From the sequence record OV876907: a stretch of DNA of 64,000 bases; one strand, written 5' to 3'. The position numbers and the translations under genes are program-made. Origin of the DNA: Escherichia phage UGJNEcP3. Of this stretch, positions 32,144-37,557 are shown one piece after another (within the stretch, counting starts at the first letter, position 1; each line of letters begins with the position of its first letter). The notes beneath the pieces were generated by a model. The model worked only from the letters and a program-made list of their open reading frames with translations. It was not told the origin of the DNA and ran no database searches.

Positions 32144-32326
32144 TTATGCTTTCAACTCATTCAGATACTCAACCAAGGCTGCTTTAGAGTTAGCCAAATC
32201 TCGTTTACACTGCTCTATTCCGGAATACGAATAGCCTTCACAATGTTCTACTGCACTATCATAAGAATCACGTTCAATATCAGTAGCAAGTTTAATAATT
32301 TTCTCAATCTGTTCGGTAGTTAACAT
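32144..32326 (-). CDS. Hypothetical protein
   Basis: 60 aa ORF. Confidence 0.4.
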   Translation of the reverse strand: MLTTEQIEKIIKLATDIERDSYDSAVEHCEGYSYSGIEQCKRDLANSKAALVEYLNELKA

Positions 32327-32391
32327 AACTTTCTCCTCATTAGTTGATAGGTGTATAGTATCACGTTCCTAGAGGATGTAAACACTAAAAC

Positions 32392-32420
32392 GAAAAAAGG
32401 TCCCACCGAAGTGAGACCTT
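32392..32420 (-). terminator. Intrinsic terminator
   Basis: Minus strand hairpin GGTCTCAC-TTCG-GTGGGACC followed by TTTTTT. Confidence 0.55.
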
Positions 32421-32423
32421 TGG

Positions 32424-32810
32424 TTATTCTAACGTTAACAAATACTTAGTCTGGTAAAAGACACCAGTGATGTCGTCCAAAGTCGATTGGATGGCCTTAG
32501 GAAGATTTTTGTAGATTTTATCAGACGCTTTAATAAGTTCATCAAGAAAATCTATAGGGTCTTTAGGCAGTTCTGAAGCAGATGGTAGTGATGCTTTATA
32601 TTCTTTGCCACTAAATCCTAAATACTGTTCACTGAACTGGTCTAGTGGTCCTTGAACTTCTGTATAATAGAAGTCATATGCTTTGTGTCTTGCATAGCTT
32701 TTGGTTTCCAAATGGGCTGACTTAAAATAGGCTAAAGAAACCAACAGCCAACCAATATAAGAATCTACTTCAGTCCCTCGACTAAGTACGAAATCATTGA
32801 ATTTCATCAT
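32424..32810 (-). CDS. Hypothetical protein
   Basis: 128 aa ORF followed by a terminator hairpin. Confidence 0.5.
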   Translation of the reverse strand: MMKFNDFVLSRGTEVDSYIGWLLVSLAYFKSAHLETKSYARHKAYDFYYTEVQGPLDQFSEQYLGFSGKEYKASLPSASELPKDPIDFLDELIKASDKIYKNLPKAIQSTLDDITGVFYQTKYLLTLE

Positions 32811-33087
32811 CTACCTTCATTAGTTTAGCGTATCGTTCTCCGATAGCCCGACCTTCAATCGAGCAAGACTCTATTGTATTGCAATTTGAAATTTTCCAAG
32901 AAGCAGTTACATAAGCCCAGTAGTCTTCGGAGGCCTTTACACTAGGTTTACTCATTTGCGCATAAACTGGCATCGCACTACTAGCAAAGGCGTCCATCAA
33001 TTTAGGGTCGGATTTGTTTGCTAGTGAAGATGTTGGGCTTAAACATCCAATCATAAGGATACAAGCCACTGTACGGAAAATACCCAT
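32794..33087 (-). CDS. Hypothetical secreted protein
   Basis: 97 aa with N-terminal signal peptide MGIFRTVACILMIGCLSPTSSLA. Confidence 0.5.
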   Translation of the reverse strand: MGIFRTVACILMIGCLSPTSSLANKSDPKLMDAFASSAMPVYAQMSKPSVKASEDYWAYVTASWKISNCNTIESCSIEGRAIGERYAKLMKVDDEIQ

Positions 33088-33180
33088 ACAAAAGTCCTTT
33101 GTTATTTTATACGAATTTGCCTTTCGGCCTTAACCGATAGCGATTACCAAAAGCTAAAGCTCTACGGTTAGTATTACTAT

Positions 33181-33459
33181 TTATAGCTTTTTAAGCTTAC
33201 GACAATAAGAATAGAACACGTCGTTAAAATTATATTCAACCCAATTCCTCTGTATAGGCGAGGTAATGGAAAGCATATAATGTGCTTTAATTAAATCCAT
33301 TCCATTTTTATTAGGGCATTCTTTATTATTAGCATTATACGTCGCTGCTACAACTTCTATCTCTCTTTTGTAAGCCGCATCATCCATGATGGGCGAAAGA
33401 ACAATATAAGAGATGGCCACAGCGAACGCTAGAATTAAAATCTTTGAATTTAGGTCCAT
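33181..33459 (-). CDS. rI: RI-like lysis-inhibition regulator (by position and topology)
   Basis: 92 aa with N-terminal signal-anchor, immediately upstream of tk as rI is in T4; sequence not recognised. Confidence 0.4.
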   Translation of the reverse strand: MDLNSKILILAFAVAISYIVLSPIMDDAAYKREIEVVAATYNANNKECPNKNGMDLIKAHYMLSITSPIQRNWVEYNFNDVFYSYCRKLKKL

Positions 33460-33466
33460 AGTACCC

Positions 33467-34039
33467 TCAACTCGTTATTTCTATCCAGTGCTTCCTGCAC
33501 AATGACACGTAAGAATCGTTGCCACCTATAGAAACTTGGGCTCCGTCCTTAATTGCGACACCATCTTGGACCCTAGCAGTCATAGTAGCTTTACGGCCGC
33601 AATGGCACACACCTTTGTACTCAACGAGTTTATCTGCCGTAGCGAGTAATTCAGCAGAACCAGGAAACAGTTTACCCTGAAAATCAGTTCTTAGCCCATA
33701 ACACATAACTGGAACATTATAATTGTCTACTATCTTTGCCAGTTGTTTTATCTGTGCAGGTTCTAAGAATTGTGCTTCATCCACAAACACACAGTGGATA
33801 TCTTTTTGAGATTCAGCCCAACGATAGAACTCGTATAGGTCCATATCTGGAGTCACCCCATTAGCCTCTTGACTAATCCCTATACGAGACGAAATGGTAT
33901 GGCTTGATTCTCTATTATCTATCGCAGGCTTTAAAAGGAGTACGCCCATACCGCGTTCTTTGTAGTTATGAGCTGCCGTTAGCAATGAAGCGGTCTTACC
34001 GGAATTCATTGCTGCATAATGAAAATAAAGTTGGGCCAT
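33467..34039 (-). CDS. tk: Thymidine kinase
   Basis: 190 aa; YAAMNSGKTASLL P-loop, DIHCVFVDEAQFL, C-terminal CHCG...LCRKHW zinc motif; close match to T4 Tk. Confidence 0.95.
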   Translation of the reverse strand: MAQLYFHYAAMNSGKTASLLTAAHNYKERGMGVLLLKPAIDNRESSHTISSRIGISQEANGVTPDMDLYEFYRWAESQKDIHCVFVDEAQFLEPAQIKQLAKIVDNYNVPVMCYGLRTDFQGKLFPGSAELLATADKLVEYKGVCHCGRKATMTARVQDGVAIKDGAQVSIGGNDSYVSLCRKHWIEITS

Positions 34040-34208
34040 ATTACCTTCTTAAAGACTATTTACATAAGCAATTAATTCATTTTCCTTTTTAGAAAACTCA
34101 TCCTCTTCGTCACCTCTCCAGTCCCAATCCAGAGAGTTATCAAATTCACATTCTGTGTTGAGTTCCATAAGCTCATGGATAAGCTCAAACAATTTATCTT
34201 TCTGCTCT

Positions 34209-34664
34209 TTACTTAGGCTCATAATCTACCACCACCAAATTAATATCAGGAGTAAACAAATTAATCAATTGATAAACCTTATCCCAATCACCACCGGCAA
34301 TACCACAACCAATACGAGGGATATAAATTCTCGGTTTAAACAAAAGACCTTTTGCTTGTTGATTTAATTCTATCATACAGTTTACTAAAGCACTGTAATC
34401 AAGATTAGGACCTGGTTCATATTGCGTATAAAGATTATAGCAAATTTGGCCGTTATTGCCTGTGGCTTTAGTAAATGTTCCAAGTTTTGCTGCATCACCT
34501 AAATAGGTGGCTTCTCTATCAATAGCAAGAATAGGTGAATACGCCTTAGCCAATTGACCTGCTACACCTGAACCCATAGTATGGAAACAGTTACACCCAT
34601 GAGCAACGTTATTACCTTGAAGAAACAGGGCGACGATATCGCCCTTAATATAATCAATAATCAT
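34209..34664 (-). CDS. Macro-domain protein (ADP-ribose binding/hydrolase-like)
   Basis: 151 aa; VAHGCNCFHTMGSGVAG and IGCGIAGG glycine-rich motifs typical of macro domains. Confidence 0.65.
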   Translation of the reverse strand: MIIDYIKGDIVALFLQGNNVAHGCNCFHTMGSGVAGQLAKAYSPILAIDREATYLGDAAKLGTFTKATGNNGQICYNLYTQYEPGPNLDYSALVNCMIELNQQAKGLLFKPRIYIPRIGCGIAGGDWDKVYQLINLFTPDINLVVVDYEPK

Positions 34665-35017
34665 TTAGAGTTTAGCCCTCGGTTGTAAGAGTCAACGAGT
34701 CTGTCTACCATAGACGCGCACATTTCTTTGTACTTTTTATCAGATGGAACACATTCAGTGACGTTTAGACGTTGCTCGTATCTTTTAGAAAGAGTTTTCT
34801 CTTTCATTCGACGATGCTCGACGTCGTTCTGCCCATCTTTAAAAGCAGCTGTTATTTTTGAACTGAATTCAATAACACATTCAGTATTACTCGGATGACA
34901 ATAATCTTTTGCTGTACGGGTGGCATACTCGACAATTGAATTATTTGTATCATCAACCTGTGATGCTAATACTCCCGGAGCAATCAACATAAGCGCTATA
35001 GTCATCTGTTTAATCAT
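34661..35017 (-). CDS. Hypothetical periplasmic protein
   Basis: 118 aa with signal peptide MIKQMTIALMLIAPGVLASQ. Confidence 0.5.
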   Translation of the reverse strand: MIKQMTIALMLIAPGVLASQVDDTNNSIVEYATRTAKDYCHPSNTECVIEFSSKITAAFKDGQNDVEHRRMKEKTLSKRYEQRLNVTECVPSDKKYKEMCASMVDRLVDSYNRGLNSK

Positions 35018-35557
35018 TTAATATACCGCCTCAAACATCTTTTTAGATTTTAGGTAATTGGCCTTTTCTAGAACTTCGGAAGCATATTTACTGCCTGCTT
35101 TGACATTCCAGCCCGCATTATAAGAAGCAATCGCTTTTCTCAGGTCACCTTTGTGAACATTAATCCAATAAGACAGTTCAATGTAGGCCCAAGAGGCACT
35201 GTTCTGTCGTTTTTGGACCATACGAATTATTTCTTTGTCAGACATCTTCCAACCTACCTGTTGAACACGACTTCTTAACGTAGGCAAGTAATTTTGGAAC
35301 ATGCCATAAGCATGGTGCTTATCTTTATTTAAACCCTGATTAATTCCGGCGGATGATTCCTGCCATAGTAATCCGGCCATAATATATCCTAATCCTTTTT
35401 GATTAGGGTTTTCTTTGAACTTTCCCGACTTTTGGTATTGTTCACCGAAAGCATACGCATAATGTAAATTATCGAGTTGTTCATTACTGAAAGTAGGCTC
35501 TACGCTATGGGCAGACATACTAACTGTCAATAGTAAAGTGGCTAATACTTTTTTCAT
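35018..35557 (-). CDS. Secreted lytic-transglycosylase-like protein
   Basis: Signal peptide MKKVLATLLLTVSMSAHS; GLLWQESS and ASYNAGWNV resemble the SLT-domain E-S and A-Y-N-A-G motifs. Confidence 0.5.
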   Translation of the reverse strand: MKKVLATLLLTVSMSAHSVEPTFSNEQLDNLHYAYAFGEQYQKSGKFKENPNQKGLGYIMAGLLWQESSAGINQGLNKDKHHAYGMFQNYLPTLRSRVQQVGWKMSDKEIIRMVQKRQNSASWAYIELSYWINVHKGDLRKAIASYNAGWNVKAGSKYASEVLEKANYLKSKKMFEAVY

Positions 35558-35569
35558 GAGACCTCATTA

Positions 35570-36028
35570 TTAAAGATAGATTACTTTCGTGCTGGTTTTA
35601 CCTTCTAAACGTTTAGAGTTAACAAATGCCATACGACATTTAAGGGAATATCCTTTATCAGGATGTTTACGATCTACGGTCATACCTAGCCATAAGGTTT
35701 TATCGGTAATTTCGAGACGCAGTGGGCGATACACCTTACCTGGGACAATTTCAGATTCTACGTCAGGAAGAGGCTCCTGGATTAAAAATTCATGGATTTC
35801 TTTAACATGGTTATGGAGCTTCTTGAACAAAGAGAAAACATATTTTTCGTCAATTTCACGTTGGATAGCACGGTCCAACAAGTGATTAGAGTACTTAATA
35901 AAGAAAGCTGGGACACCGCTCTTAATGGCGGCTTTTTTGATGGACGCGTTAAGTTCACGAAATTCGGTTTCGAACTGACGACGTAATTTGTTGCGGCGGA
36001 TGAATACTTCTGAATTAATTTCTGACAT
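35570..36028 (-). CDS. regB: Endoribonuclease RegB
   Basis: 152 aa; EVFIRRNKLRR...HLLDRAIQREIDE...RLEITD closely matches T4 RegB as recalled. Confidence 0.9.
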   Translation of the reverse strand: MSEINSEVFIRRNKLRRQFETEFRELNASIKKAAIKSGVPAFFIKYSNHLLDRAIQREIDEKYVFSLFKKLHNHVKEIHEFLIQEPLPDVESEIVPGKVYRPLRLEITDKTLWLGMTVDRKHPDKGYSLKCRMAFVNSKRLEGKTSTKVIYL

Positions 36029-36090
36029 TTTATAATCTCCTGTAGTTTATAGGTCTATAGTATCATGTCTACAGGAGATGTAAACTGCTT

Positions 36091-36369
36091 TTAGTATTTT
36101 TCTTCAGGTTGGAAAACGGAACGACAGGCCCACATGGATGCTTCTTTCAAGCGTTCGATTGCCGTACGAATCTGGGCGAGACGTTCATGAGTGAGGTCGA
36201 ATTCTTCATCACTCATTTTATCGACACCTGAGCATGTAAAGGCTTCAACGTATTCTTCTTCTAATGCTTTAAAGATTAAGCCTAATCGAACTTCAGCATC
36301 TTTAATGGCATTCACTTTACCGATTTTATCGTCGGTATGCGGCTTGTAACCTTTGATATCTTCAATCAT
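36091..36369 (-). CDS. Hypothetical protein
   Basis: 92 aa ORF. Confidence 0.45.
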   Translation of the reverse strand: MIEDIKGYKPHTDDKIGKVNAIKDAEVRLGLIFKALEEEYVEAFTCSGVDKMSDEEFDLTHERLAQIRTAIERLKEASMWACRSVFQPEEKY

Positions 36370-36584
36370 TTTACTTCCTCATCAGATGCAATATCATATT
36401 CTACAAAACGAAGGCCATCGTATCCACCACTAACAGAGATATACGTAGTCGGGTAAACAATTTCTTTACCGTTCCATTGGCCACCGTCCCAACACTCCAT
36501 AAAGCCTTGTTCACCCTGTTCGTGGAACCAGTCAACAAACATCTTCAGAGCTTCATCAGAGCCTTCAATTGTCAATTTAGACAT
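36366..36584 (-). CDS. Hypothetical protein
   Basis: 72 aa ORF. Confidence 0.45.
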   Translation of the reverse strand: MSKLTIEGSDEALKMFVDWFHEQGEQGFMECWDGGQWNGKEIVYPTTYISVSGGYDGLRFVEYDIASDEEVK

Positions 36585-36873
36585 ATTTTTTCCAGTCAGA
36601 AATCATATGAATCTCTTGGTCATACGTCAAGAGACTGCGAGTAATAATACCCTTACACGGCCCAGAGATGAACTCGAGAGTGAAGTAAGGAACCTGTTTC
36701 ATTAATCGGATGCTTGGGGCATGACATCTAAAACGAGAGCCCTTAAAGGGCCCTGACATGAATACATATTCTAATGGATAGAAATAAGCATATTCGAAAT
36801 TTGCAGTAAGGTCCTCTCTTCGAACCTTACGTGAGAAATAACAGAACTCAAAAAGCTCTTCATCAGTCATCAT
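36577..36873 (-). CDS. Hypothetical protein
   Basis: 98 aa ORF. Confidence 0.45.
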   Translation of the reverse strand: MMTDEELFEFCYFSRKVRREDLTANFEYAYFYPLEYVFMSGPFKGSRFRCHAPSIRLMKQVPYFTLEFISGPCKGIITRSLLTYDQEIHMISDWKKYV

Positions 36874-37397
36874 TGCATTCCTATCACAAAGAACAGTGGC
36901 AGAGGTTTAGAACCCTGGCACATAAATTTGTTAATCATTACCTGGTAAGCTTCATAGAACTTATCCATCGATGGAAGGCGCATTGGCTCTTCGATAATAA
37001 TCAATAATCGAGTAACTGATAGACCACGATACTTATGGAAGTTATCTTCGTCTAAAAATGAACGCACGGTATCATATACAACAAATCCAGGACCTTCTAC
37101 TTGAAGGTGTGGTTGGGCCTTAGAAACCCTTTTTATTATATTACAGATTTCTCGTGAGCGATGCGAAGAACTTGACATAACAATCACATCATTACCCTTG
37201 GAAACCCAATCAGCTGCGAACTGAGCAAGGGCACTTGTTTTACCTGTTTGACGCCCGCCGTCAAGTCGAAGAGTACCAAACTCTTGCATTCTTGAAGTGG
37301 GTTCGTACCAGGTATATTGGTCTGAGTCTAAACGTTCAATGGCGCGTTCAGCGAAGGCGTGCATTAAGGTTAGATAAATGGGAGTTAAAAATTTCAT
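36870..37397 (-). CDS. Hypothetical P-loop protein
   Basis: 175 aa with GGRQTGKTS Walker-A-like motif. Confidence 0.5.
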   Translation of the reverse strand: MKFLTPIYLTLMHAFAERAIERLDSDQYTWYEPTSRMQEFGTLRLDGGRQTGKTSALAQFAADWVSKGNDVIVMSSSSHRSREICNIIKRVSKAQPHLQVEGPGFVVYDTVRSFLDEDNFHKYRGLSVTRLLIIIEEPMRLPSMDKFYEAYQVMINKFMCQGSKPLPLFFVIGMQ

Positions 37398-37557
37398 AAT
37401 GGTCTCTTAGTTGTGGGGCCGTTCCTTGGCACATAATTCAACCATGTATCCGAATGTAAACCCCTTACCGCACTCGGGCTCGACCTTATTACAGGTAGGG
37501 AAAGGTCCATCACTCAGAGGACGCGACGTTCATGAGGAGAGGGTCGGTTTGCCTTTA

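What the first reader, a model, noticed from the sequence alone, without database searches (positions are those of the whole stretch)
34209..34664. Macro-domain protein between tk and regB
Motifs GCNCFHTMGSGVAG and GCGIAGG indicate an ADP-ribose-binding macro fold. A phage macro domain could reverse ADP-ribosylation of DNA or protein, for example countering DarT-type toxins, or regulate the phage's own ADP-ribosyltransferases.
Basis: partly seen in the sequence, partly recalled or inferred. Interest (0 to 1): 0.55.

Follow-up and report, generated by a model that had tools for sequence, protein, structure and literature searches.

The report
Phage tk.4/AdfM macrodomain, anti-DarT2
This gene is the ortholog, in a T4-like coliphage, of T4 tk.4 (adfM), a small ADP-ribose-removing enzyme already reported to protect T4 from the bacterial DarTG2 defence, so the finding is correct but already known.

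Summary

The window is 100% identical to Escherichia phage UGJNEcP4 (Dhakavirus). The gene is the syntenic ortholog of T4 tk.4, with 54% identity over the full length and the same vs/tk.4 ATGA overlap. A 2025 preprint showed that T4 tk.4 (renamed adfM) is the single T4 gene needed to resist DarTG2.

One refinement came out of this work. This family is not a DarG copy. It scores 21 bits against the DarG equivalog model (cut-off 250) and lacks DarG's C-terminal domain. It also carries an invariant Gln (Q81, 260 of 260 aligned homologs) where DarG and TARG1 have their catalytic Lys. The same Gln is found in SCO6735, a biochemically proven thymidine-ADP-ribose DNA hydrolase. PhiKZ "AdfM" is a separate, Lys-type, DarG-like lineage.

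No biochemistry exists for this ortholog. Interest is low.

The parts
34209..34664 (-). tk.4 / adfM coding sequence, a 151-aa stand-alone macrodomain
34587..34601 (-). H22-G23-C24-N25-C26 motif. It matches SCO6735 H24, V25 and N27; the Asn positions the catalytic Gln.
   Evidence: Profile alignment to 5e3b. SCO6735 mutagenesis. N25 is present in 260 of 260 aligned homologs and H22 in 253 of 261.
34422..34436 (-). N77-L-Y-T-Q81 motif. Q81 sits at the position of SCO6735 Q85, TARG1 K84 and DarG K80.
   Evidence: Q is present in 260 of 260 aligned homologs. SCO6735 Q85A is inactive.
34290..34319 (-). P116-R-I-G-C-G-I-A-G-G125, the phosphate-binding loop. G119 and G121 match SCO6735 G126 and G128.
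34437..34517 (-). Hypervariable segment, aa 50-76. It contains the conserved K60-L-G62.
   Evidence: About 30% identity between the window, T4 and P0009 alleles here, against 74-86% in the N-terminal 50 aa. Some Dhakavirus records match the gene only in two pieces.
34661..34664 (-). ATGA overlap of the vs stop codon and the tk.4 start codon, which suggests translational coupling
   Evidence: Sequence. T4 has the same 4-nt overlap.

Best explanation
This is the Dhakavirus ortholog of T4 Tk.4/AdfM. It is a stand-alone macrodomain of the ALC1/TARG1-like class, made from the regB-vs.1-vs-tk.4-tk gene cluster. It most likely acts as a DNA ADP-ribosyl glycohydrolase. When a host DarT2 toxin ADP-ribosylates thymidines in single-stranded phage DNA and blocks replication, the enzyme would bind the ADP-ribose in its cleft and cleave the thymine-ribose bond. 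That would restore replicable DNA and let the phage grow on DarTG2 hosts. The chemistry is inferred to follow SCO6735 rather than DarG. Gln (Q81), held in place by Asn (N25), would orient the distal ribose, and no catalytic Lys or Asp is involved. What is shown: fold, orthology, synteny and conserved residues here, plus the genetics in T4. What is inferred: the substrate and mechanism for this protein.
For: Macro fold. Orthology and synteny with T4 tk.4. T4 tk.4 is the sole DarTG2-conditional gene, and its knockout is DarTG2-sensitive. The nearest solved relatives are BT1257 and SCO6735, then TARG1, Poa1p and DarG. SCO6735 removes DarT-made thymidine-ADP-ribose from DNA in vitro and in cells, is inactive on guanosine-ADP-ribose, and loses activity with Q85A or N27S. 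The equivalent residues H22, N25, Q81, G119 and G121 are invariant or nearly so in 261 homologs. T4 resists DarTG2 independently of its NADAR enzyme AdfN.
Against: No enzymatic data exist for T4 Tk.4 or for this protein; the preprint infers hydrolysis from structure alone. The window protein is only 54% identical to T4 Tk.4, and the phosphate loop differs (GIAGG here, GIGKG in T4). The two SCO6735 lysines that position DNA are not conserved: K34 aligns with S32, and K89 lies in a loop insertion absent from the phage family. Relatives in this class also act on Glu/Asp-linked protein ADP-ribose and on uracil-ADP-ribose in RNA. The physiological substrate could therefore be broader or different.
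Confidence: 0.8

Rival explanations
1. It mainly reverses ADP-ribosylation of RNA (for example uracil-linked) or of nucleic acids modified by ADP-ribosyltransferase defences other than DarT2. On this reading DarT2 protection is only one facet.
For: TARG1, DarG and SCO6735 all hydrolyse uracil-ADP-ribose on ssRNA, and SCO6735 does so efficiently. Several ADP-ribosylating defences exist, such as CmdTAC.
Against: No bacterial defence that ADP-ribosylates uracil is documented in the papers read. SCO6735 is inactive on guanosine-, 2'-OH- and 5'-phosphate-linked ADP-ribose. The only T4 phenotype reported for tk.4 among the defence screens quoted was with DarTG2.
Confidence: 0.12
2. It neutralises DarT2 chiefly by binding and inhibiting the toxin stoichiometrically, not by hydrolysis.
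For: Catalytically dead SCO6735 Q85A still inhibits DarT in vitro, more strongly than DarG or TARG1 mutants do. The hypervariable surface segment at aa 50-76 could reflect co-evolution with a protein partner.
Against: The full catalytic and ADP-ribose-binding residue set is invariant in 260 of 260 homologs, which argues for selection on catalysis. The protein lacks the dedicated DarT-binding C-terminal domain of DarG. The unrelated PhiKZ AdfM needs its catalytic Asn for full activity.
Confidence: 0.08
3. It is a metabolite enzyme, either an ADP-ribose-1''-phosphate phosphatase (Poa1p-like) or an O-acetyl-ADP-ribose deacetylase, as the database labels 'phosphatase' and 'O-acetyl-ADP-ribose deacetylase' suggest.
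Confidence: 0.07
4. It reverses or tunes protein ADP-ribosylation by the phage's own Alt, ModA and ModB enzymes.
For: T4-like phages encode ARTs (established knowledge). SCO6735 and TARG1 remove Glu/Asp-linked protein ADP-ribose.
Against: By established knowledge, not tested here, T4 Alt and Mod enzymes modify arginine, a linkage that ALC1-like macrodomains are not known to cleave. The gene is not adjacent to any ART in the window. tk.4 is dispensable on plain K-12, where those ARTs act.
Confidence: 0.04

Closest known systems
T4 Tk.4 = AdfM (anti-DarT factor Macrodomain), bioRxiv 10.1101/2025.11.20.689424
   Same: 54% identity over the full length. The two share the same locus between vs and tk, the same ATGA overlap with vs, the same size, and the same HGCNC, KLG, NLYTQ and PRIGxG motifs.
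   Different: They come from different genera (Dhakavirus and Tequatrovirus). The segment at aa 50-76 is only about 30% identical. The phosphate loop is GIAGG here and GIGKG in T4. This ortholog has not been tested against DarTG2.
Streptomyces coelicolor SCO6735 (PDB 5E3B) and Bacteroides BT1257 (2FG1/2AFC), Gln-type ALC1-like macrodomains
   Same: They are the best sequence and structure matches among solved structures. They share the Gln at the catalytic position, the Asn that locks it, the His, and the GxG loop. SCO6735 is a proven T-ADPr DNA hydrolase and rescues cells from DarT.
   Different: Identity is only about 23-29%. The phage family lacks the longer 'mobile loop' that characterises the SCO6735/BT1257 subclass, and it lacks K34 and K89. 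SCO6735 and BT1257 are cellular proteins; this one is viral.
DarG antitoxin macrodomain (PDB 5M3I, 5M3E; NCBIfam NF048014)
   Different: DarG has a catalytic Lys (FPTK), replaced here by Gln. DarG has a C-terminal DarT-binding domain and this protein has none. The equivalog model scores 21 bits against a cut-off of 250, and the PADLOC DarG model scores 27 bits. No darT gene lies nearby.
PhiKZ gp104 'AdfM' (Cell Rep 2026, PMC13309987)
   Same: It is also a phage stand-alone macrodomain that counters DarTG2. For gp104, removal of DarT2-made ADP-ribose from DNA has been shown biochemically.
   Different: It is a different lineage. gp104 is DarG-type with Lys (MFPTK). It scores 133 bits on the PADLOC DarG model and E=9e-25 to the Mtb DarG macrodomain. 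It aligns to the window protein only over 40 residues at E=8e-4. The shared name hides what looks like two independent recruitments.
Human TARG1 / yeast Poa1p
   Different: TARG1's catalytic K84 and D125 correspond to Q81 and A123 here. Poa1p is a metabolite phosphatase.

Membership tests
Macro domain superfamily (Pfam PF01661) | Score above the curated gathering threshold | tested here: met
   31.1 bits against a cut-off of 22, covering aa 22-133 and profile positions 2-117 of 118
Macro domain superfamily (Pfam PF01661) | Three-layer alpha/beta macro fold | tested here: met
Macro domain superfamily (Pfam PF01661) | Binds ADP-ribose | not testable with these tools
   Only the conserved binding-loop residues were seen.
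T4 Tk.4 / AdfM orthologous group | Full-length similarity to T4 Tk.4 | tested here: met
   54% identity, 150 of 151 aa aligned, E=2e-65
T4 Tk.4 / AdfM orthologous group | Same genomic position (vs upstream, tk downstream, same strand) | tested here: met
   The gene is named tk.4 in Bp7, JS10 and IME08.
T4 Tk.4 / AdfM orthologous group | Required for growth on DarTG2-carrying hosts | not testable with these tools
   Shown only for T4.
Gln-type ALC1-like macrodomains (SCO6735/BT1257 subclass) | Gln in place of the TARG1/DarG catalytic Lys, plus the Asn that positions it | tested here: met
   Q81 and N25, each present in 260 of 260 aligned homologs
Gln-type ALC1-like macrodomains (SCO6735/BT1257 subclass) | Extended 'mobile loop', about 5 residues longer than in DarG and TARG1 | tested here: not met
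   BT1257 and SCO6735 carry a 6-residue and a 5-residue (2+3) insertion relative to the phage profile after the Gln motif. The feature is described.
Gln-type ALC1-like macrodomains (SCO6735/BT1257 subclass) | DNA-positioning lysines K34 and K89 | tested here: not met
   K34 aligns with S32, which is Ala, Ser or Gly in 254 of 261 homologs. K89 lies in the absent insertion.
DarG antitoxin (NCBIfam NF048014 equivalog; PADLOC DarG) | Score above the equivalog cut-off | tested here: not met
   21.3 bits against 250. PADLOC DarG gives 26.9 bits here and 132.9 bits for PhiKZ gp104.
DarG antitoxin (NCBIfam NF048014 equivalog; PADLOC DarG) | Catalytic lysine (K80) in the FPTK motif | tested here: not met
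   Gln at that column
DarG antitoxin (NCBIfam NF048014 equivalog; PADLOC DarG) | C-terminal DarT-binding domain and an adjacent darT gene | tested here: not met
   The protein has 151 aa and matches only positions 3-149 of the 338-position model. The neighbours are vs and a DUF7438 ORF.
Poa1p-like ADP-ribose-1''-phosphate phosphatase | Appr1p phosphatase activity | not testable with these tools

The most novel reading that the evidence does not exclude
The T4-type AdfM is not a captured DarG antitoxin. It would be an independent, Gln-type branch of the TARG1-like macrodomains, with about 1200 clusters (50% identity) at E<=1e-30. Phages would then have recruited this branch in parallel with the Lys-type, DarG-like AdfM of PhiKZ. 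Its invariant Q/N/K60 set and short mobile loop would define a third active-site layout. Its hypervariable aa 50-76 segment and mosaic alleles would mark an ongoing arms race, for example with DarT2 variants or with other thymine- or uracil-directed ADP-ribosyltransferases.
Probability: 0.3. Interest if true: 0.4.

Novelty: already known. Interest (0 to 1): 0.2.

Why it matters
ADP-ribosylation of phage DNA by DarT toxins is a recognised bacterial defence, and T-even phages carry separate erasers for the guanosine form (AdfN, gene 30.3) and the thymidine form (AdfM, gene tk.4). Recognising this gene as adfM replaces the misleading 'phosphatase' label in the GenBank record. It also predicts that this Dhakavirus resists DarTG2. 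The one point beyond the literature read here is mechanistic. The T4-type AdfM has the Gln active site of SCO6735, not the Lys site of DarG, so the two phage proteins called AdfM are not orthologs. Inhibitor design or mutagenesis should not assume DarG chemistry.

Tried and rejected
(1) A plain MAFFT alignment with the PDB sequences shifted BT1257 and SCO6735 by three columns around the catalytic motif. I relied instead on the HMMER profile alignment and on the structure-based equivalence published for SCO6735.

(2) The promoter scan of 32300-37500 found 17 sigma-70-like sites against 14.7 +/- 4.3 expected, so I do not claim a dedicated promoter. A terminator-like hairpin inside the gene (34645-34627) is treated as chance.

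(3) Base composition shows no sign of recent foreign origin; GC is 0.34-0.42, like the flanks.

(4) I asked whether PhiKZ AdfM is the same family. It is not; it matches only a 40-aa stretch at E=8e-4.

(5) I first assumed the T4 ORF next to regB was the counterpart of the window's Acb2-like ORF. It is not (E=0.45). The counterpart is the next T4 ORF (67% identity).

(6) AdfN/30.3, Alt and Mod genes were not searched for in the window. No neighbour within about 5 kb is annotated as an ADP-ribosyltransferase, and none of the nine adjacent ORFs scanned against Pfam matched an ART or NADAR family.

(7) The BFVD fold search returned only other viral macrodomains.

Full report
OBSERVATION. The ORF listing finds an ATG-initiated ORF of 151 aa at exactly 34209..34664, on the minus strand. 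Its translation contains GCNCFHTMGSGVAG at aa 23-36 and GCGIAGG at aa 119-125. The N-terminus (MIIDYIKGD) aligns from residue 1 with homologs, so the start codon is right. The ATG overlaps the stop of the upstream gene vs in an ATGA.

IDENTITY OF THE WINDOW. A 2.7-kb stretch around the gene is 100% identical to Escherichia phage UGJNEcP4 (OV877765.1; Straboviridae, Tevenvirinae, Dhakavirus). It is about 95% identical to QL01, E33, JS10 and Bp7. In that record the gene is annotated 'phosphatase'. In Bp7, JS10 and IME08 it carries the gene name tk.4.

Along the minus strand the order is:
- an Acb2/Tad1-family ORF (36091-36369)
- regB
- vs.1
- vs
- this gene
- a 57-aa DUF7438 ORF
- tk
- a 92-aa ORF
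- rI (antiholin family)
- a DUF5856 ORF

T4 has the same order, regB-vs.1-vs-tk.4-tk.3-tk.2-tk.1-tk, and the same 4-nt vs/tk.4 overlap. The window protein is 54% identical to T4 Tk.4 over 150 of 151 residues, with E=2e-65. It is the positional ortholog of T4 tk.4.

WHAT THE PROTEIN IS.
- Pfam Macro (PF01661) matches above its gathering score.
- An AlphaFold2 model built on a 38-sequence alignment is very confident, with mean pLDDT 95.6 and pTM 0.90.
- A profile of the family against PDB sequences ranks BT1257 (2e-20), then SCO6735 (4e-17) and TARG1 (5e-17), then Poa1p (6e-14), then DarG (1e-10).

The protein therefore belongs to the ALC1/TARG1-like class of macrodomains. The literature describes this class as unified by thymidine-ADP-ribose reversal (PMC9411070).

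ACTIVE SITE. The profile alignment puts the family's NLYTQ on NMIGQ of BT1257 and SCO6735, and on YLITK of TARG1. A multiple alignment puts it on FPTK of DarG and PhiKZ gp104. Q81 therefore occupies the position of SCO6735 Q85, TARG1 K84 and DarG K80, and TARG1 D125 corresponds to A123.

In SCO6735, Q85A abolishes activity and N27S nearly does. G128E reduces activity, and H24 is structurally needed. The equivalents here are Q81, N25, G121 and H22. Across 261 homologs (120 from the word-indexed search and 150 from the exhaustive profile search, with nine proteins listed in both), the counts are:
- Q81 in 260 of 260 aligned sequences
- N25 in 260 of 260
- G119 and G121 each in 257 of 257
- H22 in 253 of 261
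- K60 as Lys or Arg in 258 of 261

Two SCO6735 features are not shared. The DNA-positioning K34 is Ser, Ala or Gly here, and K89 lies in the longer 'mobile loop', which the phage family lacks. The family thus has SCO6735's catalytic layout on a DarG/TARG1-length scaffold.

WHAT IT DOES. The HIDEN-SEQ preprint (bioRxiv 10.1101/2025.11.20.689424, November 2025) reports that tk.4 was the single significant hit in a T4 transposon library grown on a DarTG2 host. A clean tk.4 knockout sensitised T4 to DarTG2. The authors renamed the gene adfM and proposed that it removes ADP-ribose from DNA, but they did not test this. Earlier work had shown that T2 and T4 resist DarTG2 independently of the NADAR enzyme AdfN (gene 30.3), which is specific for guanosine adducts made by DarT1 (PMC11825919).

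SCO6735, the closest biochemically characterised relative with the same Gln site, removes DarT-made thymidine-ADP-ribose from ssDNA faster than DarG or TARG1. It does not touch guanosine-ADP-ribose, and it rescues E. coli and Streptomyces from DarT. Combining orthology, conserved residues and these data, the best explanation is a thymidine-ADP-ribose DNA glycohydrolase that counters DarT2. I put this at about 0.8. The steps from 'T4 phenotype' to 'this ortholog' and from 'SCO6735 chemistry' to 'this enzyme' are inferences.

IT IS NOT A DarG. The NCBIfam DarG equivalog model scores 21 bits against a cut-off of 250. It matches only the macro part (positions 3-149 of 338), so the DarT-binding C-terminal domain is absent. 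The PADLOC DarG model gives 27 bits. The catalytic Lys is replaced by Gln, and no darT gene is nearby.

PhiKZ gp104 is different. It was also named AdfM and was shown biochemically to erase DarT2 marks (PMC13309987). It scores 133 bits on the PADLOC DarG model and E=9e-25 to the M. tuberculosis DarG macrodomain. It keeps MFPTK and aligns with the window protein only over 40 residues. Two non-orthologous phage macrodomains therefore share one name and, apparently, one job.

RIVALS. There are four:
- a broader or different nucleic-acid substrate, since U-ADPr RNA is cleaved by TARG1, DarG and SCO6735
- stoichiometric inhibition of DarT, since dead SCO6735 still inhibits DarT
- metabolite processing, as the 'phosphatase' and 'deacetylase' labels imply
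- reversal of the phage's own Alt or Mod modifications

The first two are compatible with the main reading. The last two are disfavoured by the DarTG2-specific phenotype of the T4 knockout and by the class of macrodomain. None of the four is excluded experimentally for this protein.

DISTRIBUTION AND VARIATION. tblastn finds relatives in 2720 of 50,697 phage records. Most are T4-like phages of Escherichia, Klebsiella, Salmonella, Acinetobacter, Aeromonas and Vibrio, but rV5-like, Felix-O1-like, Pakpunavirus and other myoviruses also appear. The exhaustive profile search finds 1225 clusters (50% identity) at E<=1e-30 and 9397 at E<=1e-10. The median length of the proteins retrieved is 156 aa. 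Macro domains are known to occur in about 41% of myoviruses (PMC9503650).

Within Tevenvirinae the gene is mosaic. Residues 50-76 are about 30% identical between the window, T4 and a common Tequatrovirus allele (P0009), while the N-terminal 50 residues are 74-86% identical. P0009 resembles T4 in the N-terminal part (86%) and the window in the C-terminal part (82% against 49%). The gene is also less conserved than its flanks. It is about 90-91% identical at the nucleotide level to QL01, E33 and KIT01, against about 95% for the 2.7-kb region.

VERDICT. However, the gene is a well-known T4-type ORF whose anti-DarTG2 role was already published for the T4 ortholog. Novelty is 'already known', and interest is low at 0.2. 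The only added value is the distinction between the Gln-type (SCO6735-like) and Lys-type (DarG-like) lineages, and the correction of the 'phosphatase' label.

Noticed in passing
window 36091-36369 (-): A 92-aa ORF directly upstream of regB hits Pfam Acb2_Tad1_hairpin (E=3.5e-16, 59.6 bits against a cut-off of 27). It is 67% identical to the T4 88-aa ORF that carries the same domain. It is probably an anti-CBASS/Thoeris nucleotide sponge, lying 1.4 kb from adfM on the same strand. The T4 ORF that sits between it and regB is absent here.
   Followed up: partly
window 34437-34517 (-), aa 50-76 of the macrodomain: This segment is hypervariable, at about 30% identity between alleles whose N-terminal 50 residues are 74-86% identical. 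Alleles are mosaic across Tequatrovirus and Dhakavirus. The gene diverges more (about 90-91% nt) than its flanks (about 95%) against the same phages. This may be recombination or diversifying selection; neither was tested.
   Followed up: partly
window 34049-34222 (-): Only one small DUF7438 ORF (57 aa) lies between tk.4 and tk, and it overlaps the tk.4 stop by 14 nt. T4 has three ORFs there: tk.3 (DUF7202) plus two DUF7438 paralogs (tk.2 and tk.1). Their function is unknown.
   Followed up: partly
literature; PhiKZ gp104 compared with window 34209-34664: The name AdfM has been given independently to two non-orthologous phage macrodomains. T4 Tk.4 is Gln-type and SCO6735-like. PhiKZ gp104 is Lys-type and DarG-like.
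   Followed up: yes
window 35018-35557 (-): The vs.1 ortholog (179 aa) has an N-terminal hydrophobic stretch that looks like a signal peptide (MKKVLATLLLTVSMSAHS). It has no Pfam hit at E<=0.01, although the T4 counterpart is annotated as containing a transglycosylase SLT domain.
   Followed up: no
window 32396-32421 (-): A strong terminator-like hairpin (11 pairs plus a T-run) lies just after the DUF5856 ORF. It may end the regB-to-rI.1 gene string. No promoter signal above chance was found inside the string.
   Followed up: no
window 36870-37397 (-): A 175-aa ORF has only sub-threshold hits to NTPase families (nSTAND_NTPase5 and AAA_14, about 17 bits). Its function is unknown.
   Followed up: no
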